64,000 nt of DNA from a virus: positions 1 through 64,000 of the IMG/VR virus record IMGVR_UViG_3300036801_000174. The stretch is one strand, 5' to 3'. Shown here piece after piece: positions 13,204 through 31,364 of the stretch. The stretch's first letter is position 1. Each line of letters begins with the position of its first letter. The position numbers and the translations under genes are program-made. The notes under the pieces are model-generated. The model worked only from the letters and a program-made list of their open reading frames with translations, was not told where the DNA came from and ran no database searches.

Positions 13204-13847
13204 TCACCCGCTCCCGTTGCGGATCGCGTTCATCGTGGTCCCGATCGGGCCGAGCCACCGGCCCATCTTCAGCGGCAACTGCTGGGTCTCCCAGGGCTTG
13301 AGGCCGTAGTCGATCAGATAGAAGCAGTCTCGGGCAGTTCGGGCGTCGAGTCCGGGAGGTGGTTCTGCGACTCGTCCGGTGAGCCATTCCTTGAGCCACC
13401 ACCATCCGTCGAACTCTCCGGACTGGCTGGCTCTTTTGGGCCGCTCTCAGCGTTCAGTGCCTCCTGGTATGGCTCAATCGCGGTCTTCAGTACCTTCGAG
13501 GCCGGGAGAGGAAGCACCTTCCGGGAGTCCGCCGAGTAGGGCAGCGGGATATGCGGCATTGCGTCAGGGGCCGCATAAGACCAGTCCGTGATCAGCGAGG
13601 CGAGCAGGTCATCGCGGCGCTGCAGGAGCATCTCCGCGGTCACGCGCATGCGGGGCGTCTTCTTCGGCGCCACGCTCACGCCATCCGCGGACACCTCGTC
13701 CTCTTCGTTGGCCTCGTCCTCGATCTGCCTGGCGTAGGCGCGCGTGAAGACCGCCTGGTAGGCGTCATCGTCGGCGGCTGTCAGGGCATCGATGTCCCGG
13801 AGCTCGACCCAGTGCTCCCCGGTACCACCCGGGACCTCAACGCGCAT
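13204..13847 (-). CDS. tail assembly chaperone GT, -1 frameshift product
   Basis: in-frame C CCA AAA at 13440-13434; -1 frame open to TGA at 13204 (..YLIDYGLKPWETQQLPLKMGRWL..). Confidence 0.75.
13314..13847 (-). CDS. tail assembly chaperone (G)
   Basis: 177 aa between major tail and tape measure; LITDWSY motif; GPK at slippery site. Confidence 0.8.
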   Translation of the reverse strand: MRVEVPGGTGEHWVELRDIDALTAADDDAYQAVFTRAYARQIEDEANEEDEVSADGVSVAPKKTPRMRVTAEMLLQRRDDLLASLITDWSYAAPDAMPHIPLPYSADSRKVLPLPASKVLKTAIEPYQEALNAESGPKEPASPESSTDGGGSRNGSPDESQNHLPDSTPELPETASI

Positions 13848-18743: not shown

Positions 18744-19541
18744 TCAGGCGGCGCGGCGGTTCTTCCGCAGCGCGAGGTTCCGTGAGCGCGTCACGGCTTC
18801 AAGGTGAACCGGGTTCACGCAGTGCCGGACATGGCAGGTGTGATGCACGTCGTGCTTGTCGGGGATCGGCCCGTTGGCCAGTTCGTATGAGAAGCGGTGC
18901 GCGTCAACAGGCTCACCGTGGCGGCGAAAGAACTGGCCGTACCTGGTCTTCTGGTTGAGGCTCGCGGTCCACAGCCAGCATGATTCGGTCTTCTCGACCT
19001 TGGCCCAGAACCGGTCTTCCGCCGTCAGCGACCTCGGTCGGACGACGTCCGGATCCTTGAGCCACTTCCGGTAGCAGGGTCGGCAGAGATCCCGCTTGTA
19101 GACCGGCTTGTCCGTCCGGCCGCACTCAGTGCAGACGGTCGGCTTCTCCGCCCTGGGCTTCGCCGGAATGACATCCGGAACGTAGCCCCAGGAGTCGCCG
19201 CCCCGGCCCCTGGCAAGGTTCATGCGGCGCGTCACGGGCTCCAGGTGCGCCGGGTTGCAGCAACGGCGGTGGGCGCACCTGTCCGTAACATCGCAGTCCG
19301 GCTCGCGCGTGTGGCACAGATGGTCGAGCACCAGGCGGCCGGGGATCTCGCCAACCAGGAACTGGTACGCGAGGCGGTGCGGCAGGCGCGTGCCGTTCGG
19401 CATGCCGAACTGGCCGTAGCCGTTCGGCGCGATGTAGCCGGTCCAGGGCCAGCACTCGCCCGGCCCGCGCTTGTCTACCTTGGTCCAGAACAGGCGCTCG
19501 CGTGACATCGCGGACGCCCGGGCAGGCGTAATCTCGGTCAT
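18744..19541 (-). CDS. tandem HNH endonuclease
   Basis: two RFWxKV..CWxWT..YGQF..HR..H.C..C.NP.HLE.VT units. Confidence 0.88.
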   Translation of the reverse strand: MTEITPARASAMSRERLFWTKVDKRGPGECWPWTGYIAPNGYGQFGMPNGTRLPHRLAYQFLVGEIPGRLVLDHLCHTREPDCDVTDRCAHRRCCNPAHLEPVTRRMNLARGRGGDSWGYVPDVIPAKPRAEKPTVCTECGRTDKPVYKRDLCRPCYRKWLKDPDVVRPRSLTAEDRFWAKVEKTESCWLWTASLNQKTRYGQFFRRHGEPVDAHRFSYELANGPIPDKHDVHHTCHVRHCVNPVHLEAVTRSRNLALRKNRRAA

Positions 19542-19573
19542 GTCTGCTCCCGGTAGAAGCGGGCTGGCAGGCA

Positions 19574-19628
19574 GACCCGGCCGGTGCACCACCACCGGCC
19601 GGGTCACGCCATTCTTGCCACGATCCTA
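19574..19628 (-). promoter_or_regulatory. -10 box (TAGGAT) and 13-bp leader hairpin of HNH gene
   Basis: TAGGAT at 19628-19623; perfect inverted repeat 19574-19586/19593-19605. Confidence 0.55.
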
Positions 19629-19672
19629 CCATGACAGACGGTCGTACTCAGCGCGTTTGCGCAGGTCAGGGC

Positions 19673-21169
19673 CTATGCTACGTTCTGCAGCATGCCCATA
19701 GCCACAGGAGCCCGGCAAACCAGGGCACCTACGGACCTTATCTCAAATTCACGACGCGGACCTCCGCCAGCCGTGTTCGCCACGCGCGAGATGCCATAGT
19801 CGAACTGCGCGGTGTCCCGCAGGTTGCGGTACTCCAGCACCGAGGAGATGTTGGCCTGCGGGAACGGCACCCGGTCAGTCCGGGCGATGATCGTGCCCGG
19901 GGGCAGCGACACGTGGACCTCGATCGGCACCGTCACGCCGCCAGCGGGGGCGTTGACGATCTCCCCGACCCGCCCGCCCGCGGTCACGCTGATGCGGCCC
20001 GTGGAGTCGGTGTTCAGGAACGTGGTAGCCGAGTTCGTGCCCAGGATCAGGTTGGCGATCTCCTGCGCCTGCGCGGCGTTGACCATGATCGCGGTCGGCG
20101 AGCACTTGACCTGGTTCCACAGCGGCAGGAACAGCTTGGCCTCGATCTCCGTCACGGTGCCACCGGTGAGGGTCAGCGCGGCGCCGTCGAGGGAGGCGTT
20201 GATGGACGGGTTGGTGGTCCCGGTCCCGGACTGCACCCACTGGCCGGTGCCGTTGTAGTCGCCGGTCAGGTTGGCCACGAAGCCGTCGTAGTCGTTGGCG
20301 TTCGCCGAGCCGTTGTCCGCGCTGGTGTTGATGGTCGGGACCGAGTTCGCGGTGCCCTTCCAGCTGGTGGACATGTCCGGGCACTGCGTCGCCGGCGGCA
20401 GCGTGTTGTTGCTGGAGATCGTGGAGGTGATCGTGGCGGTGTTGGTGGTCGTGGTCGTGTAGTAGTACCACGTGGAGGCGTCCGCCGAGTAGAACCAGTC
20501 GTAGGCCACGGCGCCCCGCACGGAGGCTACGGTGGCGGTGACCGAGTTCGTGGACCCGGACCCGAATGTGGACACCAGGCTGGAGGTGCCCTGGCTGTTG
20601 CCCGAGCCGTAGTAGTAGCCCGAGCCGGTCCGCGCGGCCACGCCCACGTACAGGCTGACAGCGCCGATGGAGCCGCCCGTGGTGTGCTGGGCCAGCGTCG
20701 GCGCGGCAGGGTGGGCCAGCGCGAACGACTGGGCGCCGAGGAGCTTGCGGTCGTCGGCGATCAGTACCTGGTTCAGGACGTTGAACGTCGTTATGGCATA
20801 GGGGTCCCCGTACCCCTTCGCCAGGTCGAAGGCGTCCTGCGTGACCAGGCCGGCGAGGCCGGTGGGCTTGTACCGGGCCTGGAAGTCCTGCTCGAGGAAC
20901 ACGGTCTCGTTGGCGGCGTAGTCGAAGCCCATCGACGGGTCCGGCTGCGAGTTGGTCAGGTTCATGATCGCGCGCCATACCGCGAACGGGTTCCCGTCAG
21001 GGCTGGCCTTGCGGGAGACGATGTCCCGGAACGGGGTCACCACCGGGATCAGGGTGACGAGACCGGACAGGTCGTAGCTGTAGATGCCGGTGGACTCGAG
21101 GATGCCCGTGGTCTGCGCCTTGTGGATGGCCGACAGGGTTTCCTCGGTCACGTTTTCAAGACCGCTCAT
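19673..21169 (-). CDS. major capsid protein with Ig-like insertion
   Basis: 498 aa after scaffold; AAAGGGG RBS; capsid-like termini (YDLSG..PVVTPFR; APVAMGMLQNV); central T/S/G-rich insertion. Confidence 0.8.
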   Translation of the reverse strand: MSGLENVTEETLSAIHKAQTTGILESTGIYSYDLSGLVTLIPVVTPFRDIVSRKASPDGNPFAVWRAIMNLTNSQPDPSMGFDYAANETVFLEQDFQARYKPTGLAGLVTQDAFDLAKGYGDPYAITTFNVLNQVLIADDRKLLGAQSFALAHPAAPTLAQHTTGGSIGAVSLYVGVAARTGSGYYYGSGNSQGTSSLVSTFGSGSTNSVTATVASVRGAVAYDWFYSADASTWYYYTTTTTNTATITSTISSNNTLPPATQCPDMSTSWKGTANSVPTINTSADNGSANANDYDGFVANLTGDYNGTGQWVQSGTGTTNPSINASLDGAALTLTGGTVTEIEAKLFLPLWNQVKCSPTAIMVNAAQAQEIANLILGTNSATTFLNTDSTGRISVTAGGRVGEIVNAPAGGVTVPIEVHVSLPPGTIIARTDRVPFPQANISSVLEYRNLRDTAQFDYGISRVANTAGGGPRREFEIRSVGALVCRAPVAMGMLQNVA

Positions 21170-24060: not shown

Positions 24061-24609
24061 ATGAGCGATGACCTGGTGACATGGCTGCGGGAGCAGATCA
24101 CGGCCGACCTGGAAGCGGCGAGGATCGTCGGCGCGGGAGGCTTTGAGCCGGAGCGATGGGATACCGACCCGCCGGGACAGGTGAACCCGGCACCCGCCCC
24201 CTACGGAGACCAGATCAACGCCGTGCTTGTGCCAGATCCCGAGGACCGGCGTGATCGCGAAAGCCTGCCCGGCTGGGTGGAGGTCGTCAGCTATAACCGG
24301 ATGCTCGGCAAACCACCTGAGGCCGACTGCCGGGACGATGACCTGCCGGTCGCGCTTGTCGACTATGGGCGGCGCGAGGTGGATCACATCTGCCGTCACG
24401 ACCCGCGCAACGTGGTCGCCCGCTGCGAGGCGGAACTGGCCATCCTGGATGAGTGCGACCTGCTGCTGAAGGTCGGCATCGCCTTCCCGGATGAGGCAGG
24501 CGTCGAGTCAGCGGAGCGGATCATGCGCCTGATCGGCGCGGCCTACCGTCACCGTGACGGCTACCTGGAGGAGTGGGCACCCGCCGCTGCCCTCCAGGGC
24601 AGCGGCTAG
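24061..24609 (+). CDS. DUF6221-like protein, counter-oriented
   Basis: DLVTWLREQI..HICRHDPRNVVARCEA..AAYRHRDGYLEEWAP; CAGACT-N7-ATG. Confidence 0.75.
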   Translation: MSDDLVTWLREQITADLEAARIVGAGGFEPERWDTDPPGQVNPAPAPYGDQINAVLVPDPEDRRDRESLPGWVEVVSYNRMLGKPPEADCRDDDLPVALVDYGRREVDHICRHDPRNVVARCEAELAILDECDLLLKVGIAFPDEAGVESAERIMRLIGAAYRHRDGYLEEWAPAAALQGSG

Positions 24610-27600
24610 CCCGGGATCAGGCTGCAGTTGCACCGGGGATGAGCCGGCGGCATGGTGTCGCCGCTTGAGAACGGCTGCCCGAGCGGGACGCGCCCCTCCG
24701 CCTCATTGTCCAGGCAGACCGGGCAGACGATCCCCGCCGCCGGGTCGGTGAGCCAGAGGCTGTACTCCACGCCGTTCTCCGGGTACGTGTCCATGGCAGC
24801 CTGCGCCGACGCCCCGGTGACCTGATCCATGGCCGCGCCTTCAGCCACGTCCGGGGCTGCCACGGCTCCGGCCAGCTGGTCTCCGAGGTCCCGCATGCTG
24901 GTGCCGCCGGTCACGCCACCCAGGACCCGGCTGAGCACCGCCGTGAACGCGCCCGTGATGGCTGTGACCGCGGCAGCCACAGCACCAGCCAGGAACGCGC
25001 TGAGCGCCGCGTCAAGGCCGAGAGAGGCAACCTGCCGCACGGCACCCTGGGTGTCCCCGGGCGGGGCGGCCTGCACGACCCTGTCATGGCCGTTCACCAG
25101 TGCCGTGGCGGAAACCGCGCCGATGAGATAGCCGCCGGTCACGATGCCCTCAGCGACCGCAGCCAGCGGCAGCGTGATGCCCGAGGCGGCCAGCCACTCC
25201 GCCAGCCATGCGGCTGCGGCACCGTTGCGGTCCCGCTTGCCCGGTGCGTCTCCTTGCTGTGCCGGGTTGGCTGCCAGGTAGGACATGGCCATCCGGTCCA
25301 GCACGGCGGGAGTCAGTGCCCGGGAGACGGCAGCGGTGACCTGGGGTGCCCAGTAGGCGACTGCCGGGCCGTCATGTTCCCAGCCCGGCCAGACTTTTGG
25401 GGGGCTCGCAGCTTTGGTGACCTCGGCGGCGCCGAGAGGGAAGCGGCCGACATCATTGCCGCAGTGCACTGACAGGTGAGTGAACGTCACCGGGGTCTCA
25501 GGCACGGCGGCGGGGAGCGGGTCACCGGGCTCCGTGTAGGCCAGGGTGACATGCGGGTGCCAGTCAGCATGCTCGCTGGCGGACAGGTCCGCCAGCGACT
25601 CCCGGAGCTGCTCAGCACCAGGGAGCACGACCCCGGCCCATGCGGGAGTCTTCCCGTCGCTGCTGTCCGATGGCGGGAACGTGCCGATGCCGCCCACGGT
25701 CCCGGTCAAGGGCCCGGGCATTGCTGCCGCTGCGGTGCCCGCGCGTTCGCACGCTTGCATCAGTGCTACCTCGTCCACGTCCGGGCCGAGGTAGACGATG
25801 GTGATGTGGTGATCCGTGACGCCGCCCGGGACCGGATCAATCAGCCCTTCCGGCAGGTCCAGCGAGATCATGCCCGAGCGCGGGCCCAGGTCATAGCCGC
25901 TGGTGTCCTTGCGGACTTTCACCCGGGCTGCGGCGTTCAGCTGTGCCGCCTCGGCAGCGTCCACGTGGCGGAACTCGAAGTCGCGCCACGTCCCGGCCTT
26001 GCGCCGTGCCTTCTCGAACCGGCGGAACGCGGCGAGTTCGGACTTCACCACTGCGGCCTGATCCTCCGGGCCGTCCTCGTCGTCGTCCTGCCCGATGAGG
26101 TCGTAGCTGGTGATGCCGGTGTCAGCGGTGATCCCCGTTGTGGGGGTGCCGCCTTCGCCTGCTTCCTTGGCGACCGTGCCCGGCTGCGGCGGCGGCGCGG
26201 GAGGCAGCGCCTTCGGCCCGTACTCCTGCTCAGCGAGGGGCTCGGCCACCAGCGGCGGGTTCGGCAGCACACCCTGAACACCCGTGAACGCCTCGTGCGG
26301 CAGCGGGGCATCCGGGTCCGGGGCGGCGGTCTGCGCGTCGACCGGCCCGGCAACCCCGTACAGCGCCGAGAGGGGGATGGGGCCGCCGCGTGTGGTGAAG
26401 AACACCCGCGGCACCGTCTGGCCCTCGGGCTCGGCCAGGCCGAACCGCATCTCCCGGATCTCAGACGCGCCGACGACGCCGTTCTGGATGTAGATCTGGT
26501 CGGACTGGGCGACGTTGAGCTGGTCGTCCTGTTCCTCGCCGCGGTCGAACTCGAACTCCAGCGGCAGGCCCAGGTCGTCGATGATGAATGCGGACAGGAT
26601 GCCCTCGATGTGCTCCATCAGGGGCAGGTCGCCGACGCGGTGCTGCACGTCGGCCTGCGACTCGCCGGAGGAGCGGTTGACATCCTCGGTGAAGCCCAGG
26701 TCCGACGGGACCACGTGGAAACTTGCGCAGGTCTTCCGCATCAGGAAGAGGCTGAAGGTGTCGGTGAACTCTTTCTCGTTGCTCCACGTGAACTGGCTGC
26801 CGCCGGGCAGCCAGCGGATCTGGTGTTTGGCGGCCTGGTCGCCGTAGATCATGGAGTCCCAGTAGGCTTGGAAGGTCTCGATCTGGTCGGGGTTCCACGA
26901 CTCCGGGGCGCTGGCGAAGGCTTCCGGTATGTTTCCTTCCGTAAAGCGCTGCAAAAAGTAGATCTGGAAGCGTATGTCCGTATTCGCATTGAGCATGATC
27001 GACTCAATAGGCGCGTGGCCGTAGGGCGAGTCGCTGTGCGGGCGGAAAGGCTCGTAGATCAGGTCATCCCTGGTCAGCCAGCCCCACGGCAGCCCGTTCG
27101 CGTACTGGACGTACGCCTCGGCGGGCGGCTCCGGCGAATCGCCCCAGTAATCCAGCAGCGGCGCGATCAGCGTCCCGTCAACCGGCTTCAGCCCGATGCA
27201 CTGCCCCGCGCGGTTGCGCATCCGGTACAGCGCCCCGGCGTCGTAGGCGAGAATGTCGTACGCGTACTTGGCGAACCAGGCCTTGAAACTCTGCTTGCGG
27301 TCAGGCTTCTTCAGCGCCTTCTGCGCAAGCGCAATCGCGCCGGTAACGTCCCCGGTGTAGCCCTGGGTAGCGATCAGCTTCCACTTCAGGCTGCGGATCG
27401 AGTCAATCCTGTGCCAGATACATATGTCCGCAACGTCGTAGGCCCCTATAAGGCCCTTGAGCGCATCGAAACTGACCCGCTCATGCGTCCTCGGGCGGGT
27501 CGCCACGTTGTACGACGTGGTGTAATCAAGGACGCGGGGAGTGCGGGAATACCCGTCATACGGCCCGACCGGCTCACCTGGGGAGAACGGGTGATCGGGG

Positions 27601-27731
27601 CCCATCTGCGAGACGCCGGCCGCCGCCTGGTGCATCGCTTCGGGACCGGGCCCGGCCAGTGTCTCCACGTCAGTGCCGAGGGCTTTGGCGGCGCGGGTCA
27701 GCGTCCCTGCGATGCGAGTGCGGACGCCCAT
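24606..27731 (-). CDS. portal protein fused to 2H phosphoesterase and MuF-like minor head domain
   Basis: portal N-terminal half (YGHAPIES, FHVVPSDLGF, EIREMRFGL); HITIVY and HVTLAY 2H motifs; C-terminal CPVC..PPAHPRCNC. Confidence 0.85.
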   Translation of the reverse strand: MGVRTRIAGTLTRAAKALGTDVETLAGPGPEAMHQAAAGVSQMGPDHPFSPGEPVGPYDGYSRTPRVLDYTTSYNVATRPRTHERVSFDALKGLIGAYDVADICIWHRIDSIRSLKWKLIATQGYTGDVTGAIALAQKALKKPDRKQSFKAWFAKYAYDILAYDAGALYRMRNRAGQCIGLKPVDGTLIAPLLDYWGDSPEPPAEAYVQYANGLPWGWLTRDDLIYEPFRPHSDSPYGHAPIESIMLNANTDIRFQIYFLQRFTEGNIPEAFASAPESWNPDQIETFQAYWDSMIYGDQAAKHQIRWLPGGSQFTWSNEKEFTDTFSLFLMRKTCASFHVVPSDLGFTEDVNRSSGESQADVQHRVGDLPLMEHIEGILSAFIIDDLGLPLEFEFDRGEEQDDQLNVAQSDQIYIQNGVVGASEIREMRFGLAEPEGQTVPRVFFTTRGGPIPLSALYGVAGPVDAQTAAPDPDAPLPHEAFTGVQGVLPNPPLVAEPLAEQEYGPKALPPAPPPQPGTVAKEAGEGGTPTTGITADTGITSYDLIGQDDDEDGPEDQAAVVKSELAAFRRFEKARRKAGTWRDFEFRHVDAAEAAQLNAAARVKVRKDTSGYDLGPRSGMISLDLPEGLIDPVPGGVTDHHITIVYLGPDVDEVALMQACERAGTAAAAMPGPLTGTVGGIGTFPPSDSSDGKTPAWAGVVLPGAEQLRESLADLSASEHADWHPHVTLAYTEPGDPLPAAVPETPVTFTHLSVHCGNDVGRFPLGAAEVTKAASPPKVWPGWEHDGPAVAYWAPQVTAAVSRALTPAVLDRMAMSYLAANPAQQGDAPGKRDRNGAAAAWLAEWLAASGITLPLAAVAEGIVTGGYLIGAVSATALVNGHDRVVQAAPPGDTQGAVRQVASLGLDAALSAFLAGAVAAAVTAITGAFTAVLSRVLGGVTGGTSMRDLGDQLAGAVAAPDVAEGAAMDQVTGASAQAAMDTYPENGVEYSLWLTDPAAGIVCPVCLDNEAEGRVPLGQPFSSGDTMPPAHPRCNCSLIPG

Positions 27732-28131: not shown

Positions 28132-29816
28132 CTAGCCGCTTGACACCATGAACCGCTGGTCCCTGAACGCCACGTCACGCAGCCGCTTGCGGGCCTCTTC
28201 CGGGGTCTCGGGGGCTGGCCCGGGCTCTGGTGAGGGCAGGGCTGGAGGCTCGTCAGCGAGCGGCTCAGGACCGGCTGCGGCCAGTTGCTCGGCCTTGCGC
28301 TTGGCCCAGTCGATCCACGCATCGGCTCCGCCGCCGCCGAGGTTGACCGTCAGGTACCTGAGAGCATCACAGGCATGATCGGCCGCTTTGGGGTCGGCGT
28401 CCTCAGGTGATCCAGAACGGGCGTATGGGAGGTTCTCAAGTTCCTCGATCAGCTTCGGGCAGGTCCGGAAGATATGAATCCGCGGGCACGTCTCGAGCCC
28501 GTTTGCCCGGTGGTGAGGACACGCCGGTGCTTCGGCCATGTACGAATGGATCCGCTGCCAGCCCGTGATCCGGCTGCCCGGCCCCTTGCCCGCCTTGGTC
28601 AGGTATACGCCGTTCTGCGCATACATCCGCTCCTTTGGCAGGGCATCGCCTTCAAGGTTCCACATTGAGTCGTCAGCCCAGCGTGTCATGACGTGCTCGT
28701 CGCTGGCCTCGGCCGCCAGGATGCGCCTGGCCTGGTCCGACTCGCGGACGCCTGACTCGTAGATCTCTCTGTAGACCCACAGACGCTTGTCGGGGTCAAC
28801 CGAGCCCCAGAGCACCGCGAACGGGCTGGCGAACCCCCAGTCAATCCCGTTGTAGCGGTTCCACGATGGCGGCAGCGCGATGGGGTCCATGGTGTGGCGC
28901 TCGTAGTCGTACTCGGTGAAGATCTGGCCGGCGAACAGGTCCCACCTGCCGTCCCGCATCGCGGCCTGGCGCGCCGGGTCGGTGATGGCGTCCAGACGGC
29001 GGAAGTACGCCTCGTCCAGCCACGGGTTATCAGTGGCCTTCGCCTGGATGAACCGCACCGTGAGGCCGTGCTTATCGGTGATGACCTTGGAGCCATGCTC
29101 AGTTGGCTTTATATACCGTTCGCGAACCTCGCCGTGAGACGGGCCGCCCGGGTTTGTGGTGCAGCGCACCCCGATCACCGGCACGTCGCCAGCGGCACGC
29201 AGGCGCTCGTAGCGGAGGATGTCAACTACCCCTGGCGCCAGGAGCGTGAGTTCGTCTACCAGCAAAAGTTGGTATTCTCCACCTTGACGCCTAGAAGCGT
29301 CGTCTTTGGTCTCAAGGTAGCGGAACCGGAATTTGCTCCCATTAGGAAAGCTCAGTTCCCGGGAACTGCCGTTCCAGTGACCGCCGACGGCCTCGCCGAA
29401 CTCGAACTTCCGCAGCGCGGGGAAGATGGACTCCTCGAGCTCGTCATACGTGCGGCGCACCAGCAGGACGCGCAGCCCCGGATGTCTCGCACAAGCCCGG
29501 ATGCCCTCGGCCACGAGGGCCGCACTTTTCCCCCACCAGCCGCCCCTCCGTAGAGGACGTCGGCTTCAGTGGCGGCGTGGAAACGCTCCTGCGGGCACTT
29601 CCCGCAAGGCTCAGGCACCGGCACTGCGGCGCCGTTCCGCACCGCGATCTGCGCCAGGGCGCGCGGCTTGCAGATCGGCTCGTAGCCGATCAGCGAGAAC
29701 ACGTCCATCGCGGCCATGTGCGCCGTGTCCCGGCGTTCCTTCTCGGCACGCAGGGACCGCAGCTCGACGAGCTTCGCAGCCCGGATCTCAGTTAGCGAGC
29801 GGAAGTCCGGCATCAT
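28132..29816 (-). CDS. terL: terminase large subunit, split by a -1 frameshift in the Walker A motif
   Basis: LYGGAAGGGK in one frame, SAALVAEG..LLVDE..TTNPGG..GIDWG..DHACDALRY in the -1 frame; joined product about 561 aa. Confidence 0.88.
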
Positions 29817-30225
29817 CCTGCAGGGCCATCTCCAGTTTCAGTTCCTCGAGCTGGCGGTCAATCTCGGAGATCGCCAGGTACTCGTGCCGGTCAGGCGCAT
29901 CCAGGCCCAGCAGCTTGGAGCGGCGCTCCGACCATCCGCGAGCCCCGGTCCATGCCTCCACCTTCGTGCGCGGCGACGTGTGCTCGTCCCGCGCGATCAC
30001 CAGCAGCGCCGAGAGCGCGTCCTCGATCAGCAGCAGTTCCTCGGCGCGGGCTTCCTCAACGTGCGCGGCCGGGATCATCGCCAGGGCCTTGGAGTACAGC
30101 TGGCTCACACGCGGCTGCGAGATGCCGAGCCGGCGCGCGATCTCGTCCTGCGTGAGGCGCTGGCGGCGCATCTCGACGACCTGCGCCAGGCGGTCGGCCT
30201 GAGAGGGCGTCATGCGCCGTGCCAT
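29788..30225 (-). CDS. terminase small subunit (HTH)
   Basis: LTQDEIARRLGISQPRVSQ HTH, ERRSKLLGLDAP motif, directly upstream of terL. Confidence 0.75.
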   Translation of the reverse strand: MARRMTPSQADRLAQVVEMRRQRLTQDEIARRLGISQPRVSQLYSKALAMIPAAHVEEARAEELLLIEDALSALLVIARDEHTSPRTKVEAWTGARGWSERRSKLLGLDAPDRHEYLAISEIDRQLEELKLEMALQDDAGLPLAN

Positions 30226-30254: not shown

Positions 30255-31364
30255 TCAGGCTGCGAACAGTTCGCCCTGCACCCACTTGAGGGTGGCGGGT
30301 TCTGGCTTAGCGGCCGATCGCTCAGGCGCCGCCAGCCACGCATCAGCAATGTCGAGGACTAGCGCCAGGCACGAGACGTCGAAGTATTCGCGGCCTCTGA
30401 CGGGGGCTTCTCTGGCCAGCGAGAGTGCACCCTTCACGGCATTCTCCGTGTCGAGTGCCAGCGTGCCGGGCAGCCCGGTGACCAGCCGCACCACGTCGCC
30501 GTAGCCGTCCTTAGCGTGCGCGAGCAGCCGCTGCTTGCCGTTGCCGGTCGTGACGCCGAACTTGACCACGGAGTTGCCCGTGACGACGTAGAACGCGTCG
30601 AACTCGGTGCGGGCGCAGAGCCGGCAGAGGCCGTCCCCGGACAGCACGTAGTGCGGCTTCGGGTAGCAGTCGTGGCCTGCCTTGCAGCGAACGTGCAAGG
30701 CGTGCTCTACGCCTCGGTACTCGTCGTAGATCGGCGTCGCGCCCAGTTCGGCAAGGCGCGCCCGGAACGCCGCATCGATTACCGCGGGATCACGCCCGCT
30801 GCAGATGGCGCAGATTGCCTTGCCTTGCTGCACGGACTGCCCGGTCGGATAACAATCGTGACCCTCGGAGCACTGGACATGAACCTTGGTGCGGGCGTTC
30901 CGGTAGGGCTCAAGCGCCACCGCACCCATTGCTTTCACGCGGGCATAGAACTCGGCCTCTGCTGTGTCCCGATCAAGACCCACACAGATCCGGCATGCCC
31001 CGCGCCCGCGCTGAAGTTCCCCGGGGCGCGTACGGCAGCGATGCCCGGCGGGGCAGAGAACATCGTGGGGGGTGTTCCGGCCGCGATACCTCTCGTACAG
31101 CGACGTGCAGCCGAGTTCCGCCAAGCGCTTGAGGAACGCGGCCTCTGTGGCAACGGGATCCTTGCCGGCGCATTTGATGCAGATGCCCCGGCCCTGCTGG
31201 ACGCAATTCGGGCGCGGTCGGCAATCATGACCTGCGCGGCAGCGCGCGCGGTGGGGTTGCTGAGCACCAAGCCACTCGGTCTCGAGTAACTCCGCCCCGA
31301 GTTCCTTGAGGCGGTGGCGGAAGGCCGACTCGGCCGCCAGCGACTGGGCGGTGCGTCCGGCCAC
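30255..31364 (-). CDS. zinc-ribbon repeat protein with C-terminal GIY-YIG-like domain
   Basis: four ~60-aa C..GH.C..G.G.C..C repeats then FYVV..KFGVT..RL..H. Confidence 0.7.
   Translation of the reverse strand: MAGRTAQSLAAESAFRHRLKELGAELLETEWLGAQQPHRARCRAGHDCRPRPNCVQQGRGICIKCAGKDPVATEAAFLKRLAELGCTSLYERYRGRNTPHDVLCPAGHRCRTRPGELQRGRGACRICVGLDRDTAEAEFYARVKAMGAVALEPYRNARTKVHVQCSEGHDCYPTGQSVQQGKAICAICSGRDPAVIDAAFRARLAELGATPIYDEYRGVEHALHVRCKAGHDCYPKPHYVLSGDGLCRLCARTEFDAFYVVTGNSVVKFGVTTGNGKQRLLAHAKDGYGDVVRLVTGLPGTLALDTENAVKGALSLAREAPVRGREYFDVSCLALVLDIADAWLAAPERSAAKPEPATLKWVQGELFAA

What the first reader, a model, noticed from the sequence alone, without database searches (positions are those of the whole stretch)
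29503..29549. Candidate programmed -1 frameshift inside the terminase Walker A motif
Seen: TerL changes frame exactly at GGAAGGGK|S. The break is an in-frame G GGA AAA heptamer (29532-29526), followed after 5 nt by a perfect 7-bp hairpin GCCCTCG-TGGC-CGAGGGC (29520-29503), with GGAGG 12 nt upstream. Established: SD-like element, slippery heptamer and hairpin is the dnaX/IS-type -1 signal. Inference: full TerL (about 561 aa) is made only by recoding and the 154-aa zero-frame product predominates. I know of no described case for terL. A one-base homopolymer error or an inactivating mutation would look the same.
Basis: partly seen in the sequence, partly recalled or inferred. Interest (0 to 1): 0.72.

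Follow-up and report, generated by a model that had tools for sequence, protein, structure and literature searches.

The report
Terminase gene needing a ribosomal slip
This phage can make its DNA-packaging motor (large terminase) only if ribosomes slip back one base at a slippery site inside the ATP-binding loop, and the same arrangement is kept in many unrelated phage lineages, so it looks like a real, selected feature and not an error.

Summary
On the minus strand, terL reads ...LYGGAAGGGK in one frame and continues SAALVAEG... in the -1 frame. The join is an in-frame G GGA AAA heptamer (29532-29526), with GGAGG 12 nt upstream and a 7-bp hairpin 5 nt downstream.

It is not a one-off error. 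Five N-terminal fragments from other assemblies (52-76% identical) change frame after the same lysine. Exact-pattern scans found 17 viral contigs and one Neobacillus genome with TerL split at G GGA AAA G/C, in lineages down to 26% identity. Within all-split groups both halves are under strong purifying selection (dN/dS 0.03-0.16, dS up to about 2). The heptamer and about 22 nt after it are nearly invariant in one group. A tree needs at least 8 gains or losses of the split.

Most relatives are continuous with ordinary codons. The hairpin is not a shared feature, and the upstream GGAGG is only modestly enriched. Slippage itself, its efficiency and its purpose are inferred.

My searches found no paper describing this. 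The nearest are the proposed phiHau3 terminase bypass and the vB_MoxS-R1 split, both at the same P-loop position. This scan noted the same phenomenon twice before on other DNA.

The parts
29526..29816 (-). terL, zero-frame segment: ATG 29816 to Lys97 codon 29528-29526. It covers the N-terminal helices, the Q-motif helix, strand beta-1 and the P-loop up to GGAAGGGK.
   Evidence: In the AF2 model of the continuous relative P0004, beta-1 is 78-83 and the P-loop helix starts at K89.
29526..29532 (-). Slippery heptamer G GGA AAA, in register with the zero frame.
   Evidence: The identical heptamer sits at the same junction in 17 viral loci and L152.
28132..29529 (-). terL, -1 frame segment: AAA 29529-29527, then AGT Ser and on to the TAG stop 28134-28132. 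It holds the rest of the ATPase and the nuclease domain.
   Evidence: Pfam Terminase_3 scores 29.3 bits against a cut-off of 23.2. PHROG phrog_2, large terminase, E 1.3e-29. 77% identity to the continuous relative P0004.
29352..29525 (-). Out-of-frame tail of the non-shifted product: 57 codons plus TGA.
   Evidence: The tail length is not conserved among split lineages: 3, 4, 12, 29 or 116 codons elsewhere.
29503..29520 (-). 7-bp hairpin with a 4-nt loop, 5 nt after the heptamer. It is a possible local stimulator.
   Evidence: -13.7 kcal/mol, z -1.76. Its arms are the codons for Ala-Leu and Glu-Gly. 5 of 90 continuous high-GC relatives fold at least as well over the same 36 nt.
29545..29549 (-). 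GGAGG, Shine-Dalgarno-like, with 12 nt between it and the heptamer.
   Evidence: The same motif at the same spacing occurs in 4 of 8 split lineages and in 6 of 109 continuous relatives.
29788..30225 (-). Helix-turn-helix protein (145 aa) whose end overlaps the terL start. It is probably the small terminase subunit.
   Evidence: Pfam Sigma70_r4, E 8.8e-09. PHROG phrog_645. The assignment as small terminase is inferred from its position.
24606..27731 (-). Portal protein (1041 aa), intact, downstream of terL.
   Evidence: Pfam Phage_portal, E 2.2e-17. PHROG phrog_2662, E 2.8e-62.

Best explanation
terL of this phage is written in two frames that meet inside the Walker A loop. Translation starts at ATG 29816. 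When GGA (Gly96) is in the P site and AAA (Lys97) in the A site, a fraction of ribosomes slip one base back. tRNA-Gly re-pairs with GGG and tRNA-Lys with AAA, so the residues stay Gly-Lys. Reading then continues with AGT (Ser). This gives a 561-aa TerL with an exact GGAAGGGKS P-loop. Ribosomes that do not slip make a 154-aa product that ends in the P-loop and cannot be an ATPase. The arrangement is maintained by selection and has arisen repeatedly in phage TerL genes. Its most likely effect is to keep the packaging motor at a low, set level, and perhaps to couple that level to the host's translational state, because GGA and AAA are rare codons here. Shown: the anatomy of the site; recurrence of the same heptamer at the same junction; purifying selection on both halves while the gene is split. 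Inferred: that ribosomes do the slipping; the efficiency; any role of the GGAGG and the hairpin; the purpose.
For: (1) Anatomy and colinearity with continuous relatives.

(2) Other assemblies show the same break. All 5 proteins found with the 154-aa product (52-76% identity) run through GGAAGGGK and then leave the frame. P0122 and P0123 share contig lengths with the C-terminal ORFs P0005 and P0050.

(3) Exact-pattern scans. 9 of 13 viral loci with ...GGGGGAAAAG are TerL split by -1 at the heptamer. 8 of 9 with ...GGGGGAAAAC are split with a Lys-Thr join. 1 of 61 genome hits, L152 from Neobacillus drentensis, is split. C-part identities among split forms run from 26 to 99%.

(4) Selection within all-split groups. 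The Lys-Thr group of 8 contigs has C-part dS 0.87-2.2 and dN/dS 0.04-0.16. The L014 group has dS 0.15-0.30 and dN/dS 0.03-0.08. L017 against L026 gives dS 0.71 and dN/dS 0.11. The N parts are below 1 in every defined comparison.

(5) In the Lys-Thr group the two 24-nt windows starting at -9 and +3 each hold 2 variable sites, against 3-16 (mostly 6-13) per 24 nt elsewhere.

(6) Site specificity. In a homology-based sample, all 7 split loci of 80 carry this heptamer and none is split elsewhere. Among 119 protein relatives, the 5 that lack the N part start 3-45 residues after the P-loop lysine.

(7) The codons are atypical. In this phage GGA is 4.4% of Gly, AAA 12.7% of Lys and AGT 3.4% of Ser. 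In 96 continuous high-GC relatives the two Gly codons and the Lys codon are GGG in 14, GGA in 11 and AAA in 23.

(8) The same phage has the classical tail-chaperone -1 site C CCA AAA G just before the tape-measure gene. GGGAAAA is the reported or annotated chaperone slip site in mycobacteriophage TM4 and Microbacterium phage Bush (passages of PMC4626039 and PMC11749239).

(9) No other terminase was found in the 73-kb record.
Against: No read data, protein or reporter evidence exists; slippage is inferred.

Most relatives are continuous. 114 of 119 proteins are continuous. In the window's own subfamily sample of 80 loci, 68 are continuous and none is split. All 16 loci recovered from two samples of 401 actinobacterial genomes each are continuous.

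The split is polyphyletic, needing 10 changes with at least 8 forced. It could therefore be a recurrent homopolymer deletion. L015 and L152 differ from continuous relatives carrying GGG GGG AAA AG by one G. In-frame GGG GGA AAA AG is common in low-GC phages: 80 of 80 fetched loci.

One split TerL, L339, has no in-register heptamer (GGC GGG AAA GCG).

The downstream structure is no stronger in split than in continuous forms.

For the window's own clade I had no DNA of relatives. The heptamer there is inferred from the two protein frames.

In E. coli the favoured A-site codon is AAG, not AAA (passage of PMC5009743).
Confidence: 0.75

Rival explanations
1. Tolerated, self-compensating indel. A one-base deletion in the G/A run of the P-loop happens to create a slippery heptamer. 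Low-level slippage then supplies enough TerL. The state is neutral or slightly harmful and serves no regulatory purpose.
For: At least 8 independent gains or losses are needed. L015 and L152 are one G short of continuous relatives with GGG GGG AAA AG. Most relatives are continuous. Compensated 'savior' indels are a known class (passage of PMC5009743).
Against: The split persisted through dS of about 1-2 in the Lys-Thr group without reverting, although a one-base gain in a G5 or A4 run would restore the frame. The flanking about 30 nt is conserved. In high-GC families the would-be parents (G5A5 or G6A4) are rarer than the split forms. L416/L417 carry G5A5 before a Thr codon and the distant L489 does before AGT. 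None of the 96 continuous high-GC sequences carries the G5A5 or G6A4 form before an AGY Ser codon, the direct parent of this window's site (my reading of the sequences printed; one search tallied single codons only).
Confidence: 0.13
2. Dead gene. This copy is an inactivating frameshift in a defective phage or decaying prophage, and no functional TerL is made.
For: The record is linear and estimated 72% complete. A single base is missing relative to continuous relatives. L339 shows that plain breaks occur at this loop.
Against: The downstream 465 codons are open and 77-83% identical to relatives. The nearest relatives share the break. Split groups show dN/dS near 0.1. The neighbouring portal and the 1600-, 1140- and 743-aa genes are intact. 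0 of 16 prophage copies in sampled actinobacterial genomes are broken at this site, so it is not a common decay point.
Confidence: 0.06
3. Sequencing or assembly error: one G or A lost in the G5A4 run of this record.
For: Homopolymer miscalls look exactly like this, and reads could not be inspected.
Against: The same break occurs in independent assemblies from several sources. More than 120 G or C runs of 5 or more lie in the window, yet the long genes are unbroken. G5A5 and G6A4 TerL genes assemble in frame in the same collection: 80 of 80 and 15 of 16.
Confidence: 0.03
4. Other routes to the protein. RNA polymerase might add a base in the G5A4 run (transcriptional slippage). Or the two ORFs might be made separately and assemble as a split enzyme.
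For: The runs are homopolymeric. A GTG at 29514 could start the second ORF.
Against: From general knowledge, productive transcriptional slippage in bacteria uses longer runs. The -1 frame has no start codon between its upstream stop and the lysine, so a separately made C fragment would lack the P-loop Lys-Ser. The N fragment would end in the loop.
Confidence: 0.03

Closest known systems
Tail assembly chaperone G/GT -1 frameshift of long-tailed phages (lambda G GGA AAG; GGGAAAA in mycobacteriophage TM4 and Microbacterium phage Bush)
   Same: The same X XXA AAZ heptamer class, -1 tandem slippage, and a late structural operon of a phage. This window has its own chaperone site, C CCA AAA G, at 13440-13434.
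   Different: In the chaperone case both products are used and the shift adds a C-terminal domain. Here the shift sits at residue 97 of 561, inside the catalytic loop, and only the shifted product can be an enzyme.
IS3-family transposase orfAB (for example IS911, IS3) and E. coli dnaX
   Same: A heptamer flanked by an upstream SD-like element and a downstream hairpin, as in this window. As in IS3 elements, the full enzyme needs the slip and the non-shifted product is a short N-terminal protein (recalled knowledge).
   Different: The gene family differs. In dnaX the shifted product is the short one. Neither flanking element is shared by all split terL lineages. No Rfam frameshift element matches.
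Proposed UUA-triggered translational bypass in Streptomyces phage phiHau3 terminase (passages of PMC10732093 and PMC5009743)
   Same: An actinophage large terminase interrupted in frame. The break follows KGWG and precedes K, which I read (recalled Walker A consensus, no call) as the equivalent place in the P-loop. It has been proposed as a way to tie terminase synthesis to host state.
   Different: There, 10-nt inserts starting with TTA are hopped over. Here one base is missing, there is no TTA, and the site is a canonical -1 heptamer. The terminase family is different.
Microbacterium prophage vB_MoxS-R1 terL in two ORFs (PMC9030533, section 3.7)
   Same: An inducible, replicating phage whose terL is broken at the P-loop. 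I read MW073100 and found RPRGWG, then TAG C, then AAG TCT, which is GWG|KS.
   Different: It has four extra bases starting with a stop codon, which needs a forward shift or hop. There is no X XXY YYZ heptamer.
Inteins inserted after GGGK of the TerL P-loop
   Same: The same junction, Lys|Ser/Thr. Most of the 113 loci that are not split continue in frame for more than 500 codons. 3 of 3 such loci tested carry LAGLIDADG endonuclease domains followed by the rest of TerL.
   Different: The interruption is removed at the protein level by splicing, and there is no frame change.

Membership tests
-1 programmed ribosomal frameshift site, tandem-slippage class (X XXY YYZ) | Canonical heptamer in register with the upstream frame, exactly where homology changes frame | tested here: met
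   G GGA AAA at 29532-29526. The junction is colinear with P0004.
-1 programmed ribosomal frameshift site, tandem-slippage class (X XXY YYZ) | Heptamer and split conserved among diverged relatives | tested here: met
   17 viral loci and L152 carry the identical heptamer. 5 of 5 N-terminal fragments leave the frame at the same lysine. No DNA was available for the window's own clade.
-1 programmed ribosomal frameshift site, tandem-slippage class (X XXY YYZ) | Purifying selection on the downstream frame while the gene is split | tested here: met
   dN/dS is 0.03-0.16 within three all-split groups, with dS up to about 2.
-1 programmed ribosomal frameshift site, tandem-slippage class (X XXY YYZ) | Stimulatory elements (upstream SD-like, downstream structure) | tested here: inconclusive
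   GGAGG at 12 nt occurs in 4 of 8 split lineages against 6 of 109 continuous relatives (Fisher p 0.0017). Downstream folding shows no difference (p 0.26). The window's hairpin has z -1.76. In one group the roughly 22 nt after the heptamer are nearly invariant.
-1 programmed ribosomal frameshift site, tandem-slippage class (X XXY YYZ) | Trans-frame protein made, with measurable efficiency | not testable with these tools
   This needs a reporter assay or mass spectrometry.
Large terminase TerL (ATPase plus RNase H-like nuclease) | Family profile match, fold, and an intact Walker A | tested here: met
   Pfam Terminase_3 is above its cut-off and PHROG phrog_2 matches. An AF2 model of the 77%-identical relative P0004 (pLDDT 87.3) matches D6E, Sf6, HK97 and T4 TerL. 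The Walker A is complete only in the -1 read-through.
phiHau3-type UUA-triggered bypass | TTA codon at take-off followed by a short non-coding insert | tested here: not met
   There is no TTA at the junction. One base is missing, not about 10 extra.
Curated RNA frameshift elements in Rfam | Covariance-model match | tested here: not met
   Four matches in 29300-29700, all far below their gathering scores, and none to a frameshift element.

The most novel reading that the evidence does not exclude
The Lys|Ser/Thr joint of the terminase P-loop is a general recoding hotspot. Phages use it as a valve on packaging-motor synthesis. Unrelated lineages have converged at least 8 times on a -1 slip at G GGA AAA. 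Other actinophages use a bypass or forward shift at the same joint. Because the slip codons are rare in high-GC hosts, the valve may read the host's translational state and so time or limit DNA packaging.
Probability: 0.3. Interest if true: 0.85.

Novelty: new variant of a known kind. Interest (0 to 1): 0.74.

Why it matters
Programmed -1 frameshifting in tailed phages is textbook for tail chaperones, where it sets a ratio of two useful proteins. Here it gates an essential enzyme, the packaging ATPase-nuclease, by splitting its catalytic loop. It has arisen many times.

If confirmed, it would add a new and recurrent use of recoding in phages. It would suggest that terminase dosage is under tighter control than assumed. 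It would link three separate oddities at one protein joint: phiHau3 bypassing, the vB_MoxS-R1 split gene, and P-loop inteins.

There is also a practical point. Such genes are called as two ORFs or as pseudogenes, so annotation and completeness tools may wrongly score these phages as defective.

Tried and rejected
(1) A homology scan of genome contigs with the single protein found no relative.

(2) Arthrobacter phage hits labelled '2: terminase' looked like two features, but '2' is the gene name. Phage Beans has one continuous terL.

(3) Gordonia phage Nyceirae is cited in PMC9030533 as having a split terL. It is split between the ATPase and nuclease domains, not at the P-loop.

(4) A blastn hit to Streptomyces phage phiCAM was a chance DVLYG match in another gene.

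(5) Roseobacter phage CRP-9, found with the 154-aa product, has a continuous terL. No cultured phage with this split was found by these routes.

(6) A GC3 frame plot, meant to count other frame breaks in the window, was too noisy in this 68% GC DNA and was dropped. I rely instead on the unbroken long genes.

(7) A search for GGGAAA[AG] gave only 6 sites on both strands of the window and no chaperone site. The chaperone site turned out to be C CCA AAA.

(8) A test for stronger downstream structure in split forms was negative.

(9) Rfam gave nothing relevant.

(10) Papers that looked promising in listings mention frameshifts only for tail chaperones or only in reference lists: PMC6003738, PMC7911831, PMC12671070.
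Full report
WHAT IS THERE

The window is part of a 73,382-base linear virus record, estimated 72% complete, with 68% G+C. On the minus strand lies a head-and-packaging operon:
- a helix-turn-helix protein, probably the small terminase (30225-29788);
- terL;
- a small ORF;
- a 1041-aa portal (27731-24606);
- further downstream, a capsid-size protein, an HNH endonuclease, a tail chaperone pair and a 1140-aa tape-measure protein.

terL starts at ATG 29816. It reads through ...ADVLYGGAAGGGK (Lys97) and then runs into 57 unrelated codons and TGA. The -1 frame is closed 13 codons before the lysine and has no start codon in that interval. From the lysine it reads GKSAALVAEGIRAC... for 465 codons.

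The zero-frame codons GGA AAA, preceded by G, form G GGA AAA (29532-29526). After a -1 slip the next codon is AGT. The product is then 561 aa with the P-loop GGAAGGGKS.

The C part is a large terminase. Pfam Terminase_3 scores 29.3 bits against a cut-off of 23.2. PHROG phrog_2 matches at E 1.3e-29. tblastn hits 737 phage records, all below 60% identity, and the listed ones are annotated as terminase.

An AlphaFold model of the continuous relative P0004 (77% identical, 62-row alignment, pLDDT 87.3) puts strand beta-1 at 78-83 and the start of the P-loop helix at K89. It matches the D6E, Sf6, HK97 and T4 large terminases. The break therefore lies inside the catalytic loop. The non-shifted product carries only the N-terminal helices, the Q-motif helix, beta-1 and the loop.

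GGAGG lies at 29549-29545 with 12 nt between it and the heptamer. The 7-bp hairpin lies at 29520-29503 after a 5-nt spacer: -13.7 kcal/mol, z -1.76, 11 of 200 shuffles as good.

IS IT AN ERROR OR A DEAD GENE?

Of the 119 listed protein relatives (of 468 hits at E up to 0.001 among 8000 candidates scored), 114 run continuously through the P-loop. Five lack the N part and begin 3-45 residues after the lysine.

A search with the 154-aa product among proteins of 84-270 aa gave five hits, 52-76% identical, from other assemblies. All five read ...GGAAGGGK and then leave the frame, with Val or Ala after Lys. Val or Ala is what a -1 offset of a Ser AGY codon requires. P0122 and P0123 share their longest-contig lengths (3785 and 2524) with the C-terminal ORFs P0005 and P0050. 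From this I infer that they are pairs.

On a 243-row FastTree, the window groups with P0003 and P0005 at 99% local support. The next clade out adds P0050 and three continuous proteins.

DNA EVIDENCE FROM OTHER LINEAGES

An exact scan of viral contigs for GGN GGN KCN KCN GGN GGG GGA AAA G gave 13 loci. Nine are TerL genes split by -1 at the heptamer, with -1 ORFs of 388-455 aa. Four continue in the zero frame.

The same pattern ending in C gave 9 loci. Eight are TerL split at G GGA AAA C, with a Lys-Thr join and -1 ORFs of 402-439 aa, from five sample identifiers.

In one genome per species, 61 loci matched the pattern. One of them, L152 from Neobacillus drentensis, is a split TerL. The rest are unrelated genes.

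C-part identities among split forms range from 26 to 99%. The window is 57% identical to the L014 group and 49% to L016.

Within groups in which every known member is split, both halves evolve under strong constraint (Nei-Gojobori):
- Lys-Thr group: C-part dS 0.87-2.2, dN/dS 0.04-0.16.
- L014 group (four contigs, three sample identifiers): dS 0.15-0.30, dN/dS 0.03-0.08.
- L017 against L026: dS 0.71, dN/dS 0.11.
- N parts: 0.02-0.38 within these groups where defined.

dS values above 1 are saturated, so those ratios are rough. The direction is nevertheless clear.

In the Lys-Thr group the two 24-nt windows starting at -9 and +3 relative to the heptamer each have 2 variable sites. Other windows have 3-16, mostly 6-13. 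A gene inactivated at the root of such a group would not keep a 400-codon frame open and constrained.

CONTROLS AND COUNTER-EVIDENCE

Two homology-based samples that ignore the P-loop codons were taken.

The window's subfamily: 80 loci. 68 are continuous. 12 were not resolved by the script: 11 have long open upstream frames and one is cut by the contig end. None is split.

The L017 subfamily: 80 loci. 67 are continuous, 2 are intein-type, 4 are cut by the locus start, and 7 are split. All 7 carry G GGA AAA G and belong to four lineages.

It found the same heptamer-bearing split genes plus one split TerL, L339, with GGC GGG AAA GCG. That sequence has no in-register heptamer and looks like a plain indel.

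In-frame parents exist. GGG GGA AAA AG occurs in 80 of 80 fetched loci, but 76 of these have G+C below 0.55. GGG GGG AAA AG occurs in 15 continuous TerL of 16 loci, and several are relatives of the low-GC split forms L015 and L152. For those two lineages a recent loss of one G is a fair reading.

In 96 distinct continuous high-GC relatives the codons at the three heptamer positions are GGG in 14, GGA in 11 and AAA in 23. By my reading of the sequences printed, none carries the G5A5 or G6A4 form before a Ser AGY codon. L416/L417 carry G5A5 before a Thr codon.

Two samples of 401 actinobacterial genomes each gave 2 and 15 genomes with a relative. All 16 loci are continuous. The break is therefore uncommon, and it is not a usual decay point of prophages.

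The tree needs 10 changes of the split state, at least 8 of them forced by well-supported branches; 0 of 500 label shuffles needed so few changes. The state has arisen or been lost repeatedly.

In this phage's own long genes GGA, AAA and AGT are 4.4%, 12.7% and 3.4% of their amino acids' codons. The sequence at the join is thus far from what drift would write.

STIMULATORS

GGAGG with 12 nt between it and the heptamer occurs in the window, L019, L015 and 7 of 8 Lys-Thr contigs. It is absent from the L014 group, L017/L026, L016 and L152. By lineages as I defined them, that is 4 of 8, against 6 of 109 continuous relatives (Fisher p 0.0017). Among high-GC lineages alone it is 2 of 5 against 6 of 96 (p 0.049).

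Folding energy of the 36 nt after the heptamer does not differ between 11 split and 90 continuous high-GC sequences (Mann-Whitney p 0.26). 5 of the 90 fold at least as well as the window.

The window's hairpin arms are the codons for Ala-Leu and Glu-Gly, so part of the pairing comes from the protein sequence. I regard the hairpin as a possible local helper and not as a defining part of the site.

No Rfam family matches.

HOST COMPETENCE

The gene before the tape-measure gene (13847-13314) has an in-register C CCA AAA followed by G at 13440-13434. Its -1 frame is open up to the tape-measure gene. This is the classical tail-chaperone arrangement.

The same phage therefore appears to rely on an XXA AAA G slip elsewhere. 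That reading is inferred from position, since the gene has no family hit.

GGGAAAA is given as the frameshift site of mycobacteriophage TM4 (passage of PMC4626039). It is also given as the chaperone slip site of Microbacterium phage Bush (passage of PMC11749239).

G GGA AAG is described as highly shift-prone in E. coli (passage of PMC5009743). The same text notes the preference for AAG over AAA there.

LITERATURE

Seven full-text searches turned up no description of a -1 frameshift in the terL P-loop. The library lacks most subscription journals, so this is not proof of absence.

I read passages, not whole texts, of the following papers:
- PMC10732093 and PMC5009743 propose that Streptomyces phage phiHau3 terminase is made by bypassing 10-nt inserts that begin with UUA. 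The first break follows KGWG and precedes K.
- PMC9030533 speculates on a -1 frameshift in terL of the inducible Microbacterium prophage vB_MoxS-R1. Reading its record, I found the break at RPRGWG / TAG C / AAG TCT. That is four extra bases at GWG|KS, which needs a forward shift or hop. I did not open that paper's Figure S5, which sits in a zip archive.
- PMC6003738 and PMC7911831 concern tail chaperones only.
- PMC12671070 holds the search terms only in its reference list.

In this scan's own earlier notes, two findings on other genomes describe the same terL P-loop break. One reads it as a conserved -1 frameshift. The other leaves open whether the gene is rescued or dead. They are unchecked notes. 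My evidence was gathered independently of them and agrees with the first.

VERDICT

The reading as a genuine, selected -1 recoding site is well supported by comparative evidence, but it is experimentally untested.

What remains open:
- whether the split is adaptive (dosage control or a sensor of host state) or only tolerated;
- how efficient the slip is;
- whether the flanking elements act as stimulators.

It is a new setting for a known mechanism.

Noticed in passing
window 13434-13440 (minus strand), genes 13847-13314 and the -1 frame up to the tape-measure gene 12584-9162: Classical tail-assembly-chaperone -1 site: an in-register C CCA AAA followed by G, with the -1 frame open for about 80 codons up to the tape-measure gene. 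No PHROG hit for the chaperone ORF.
   Followed up: partly
Viral loci, for example L250, L252, L271: Many TerL genes continue in frame after GGAAGGGK with an insert of about 375 aa that starts with Ala and carries a LAGLIDADG homing endonuclease. The rest of TerL follows. These are inteins at the same Lys|Ser/Thr joint. 3 of 3 tested.
   Followed up: partly
L444 (MW073100) 19556-19800: The published 'putative -1 frameshift' in terL of Microbacterium phage vB_MoxS-R1 is, on reading the DNA, four extra bases (TAG C) between GWG and KS of the P-loop. It would need a forward shift or hop, not a -1 slip.
   Followed up: partly
L339 (viral contig), P-loop region: A TerL split at the same lysine but with GGC GGG AAA GCG, so with no in-register slippery heptamer. 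It is probably a plain one-base loss, and the only such case seen.
   Followed up: partly
window 24606-27731 (minus strand): The 1041-aa portal protein carries a 2'-5' RNA ligase / LigT-like domain at residues 642-746 and a long C-terminal extension.
   Followed up: no
window 29526-29816 and the relatives listed: The TerL N-terminal extension comes in two forms. One has Cys-rich motifs (C-K-P ... P-C-G-x-C-P-Q-E, possibly metal-binding), as in the window. A shorter form reads G-Y-x-P-x-x-K-Q. Both lead into the F-H ... D-V-L-Y-G-G strand.
   Followed up: no
window 29526-29552 and L019: The 28 nt from TAC GGA GGG ... through the heptamer and the following G are identical in the window and in L019, although the two TerL proteins are only 54% identical. 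This is either convergence or exchange of the site.
   Followed up: no
window 18744-19607 and 30255-31364 (minus strand): Two HNH endonuclease genes. One lies inside the structural module and one just upstream of the putative small terminase.
   Followed up: no
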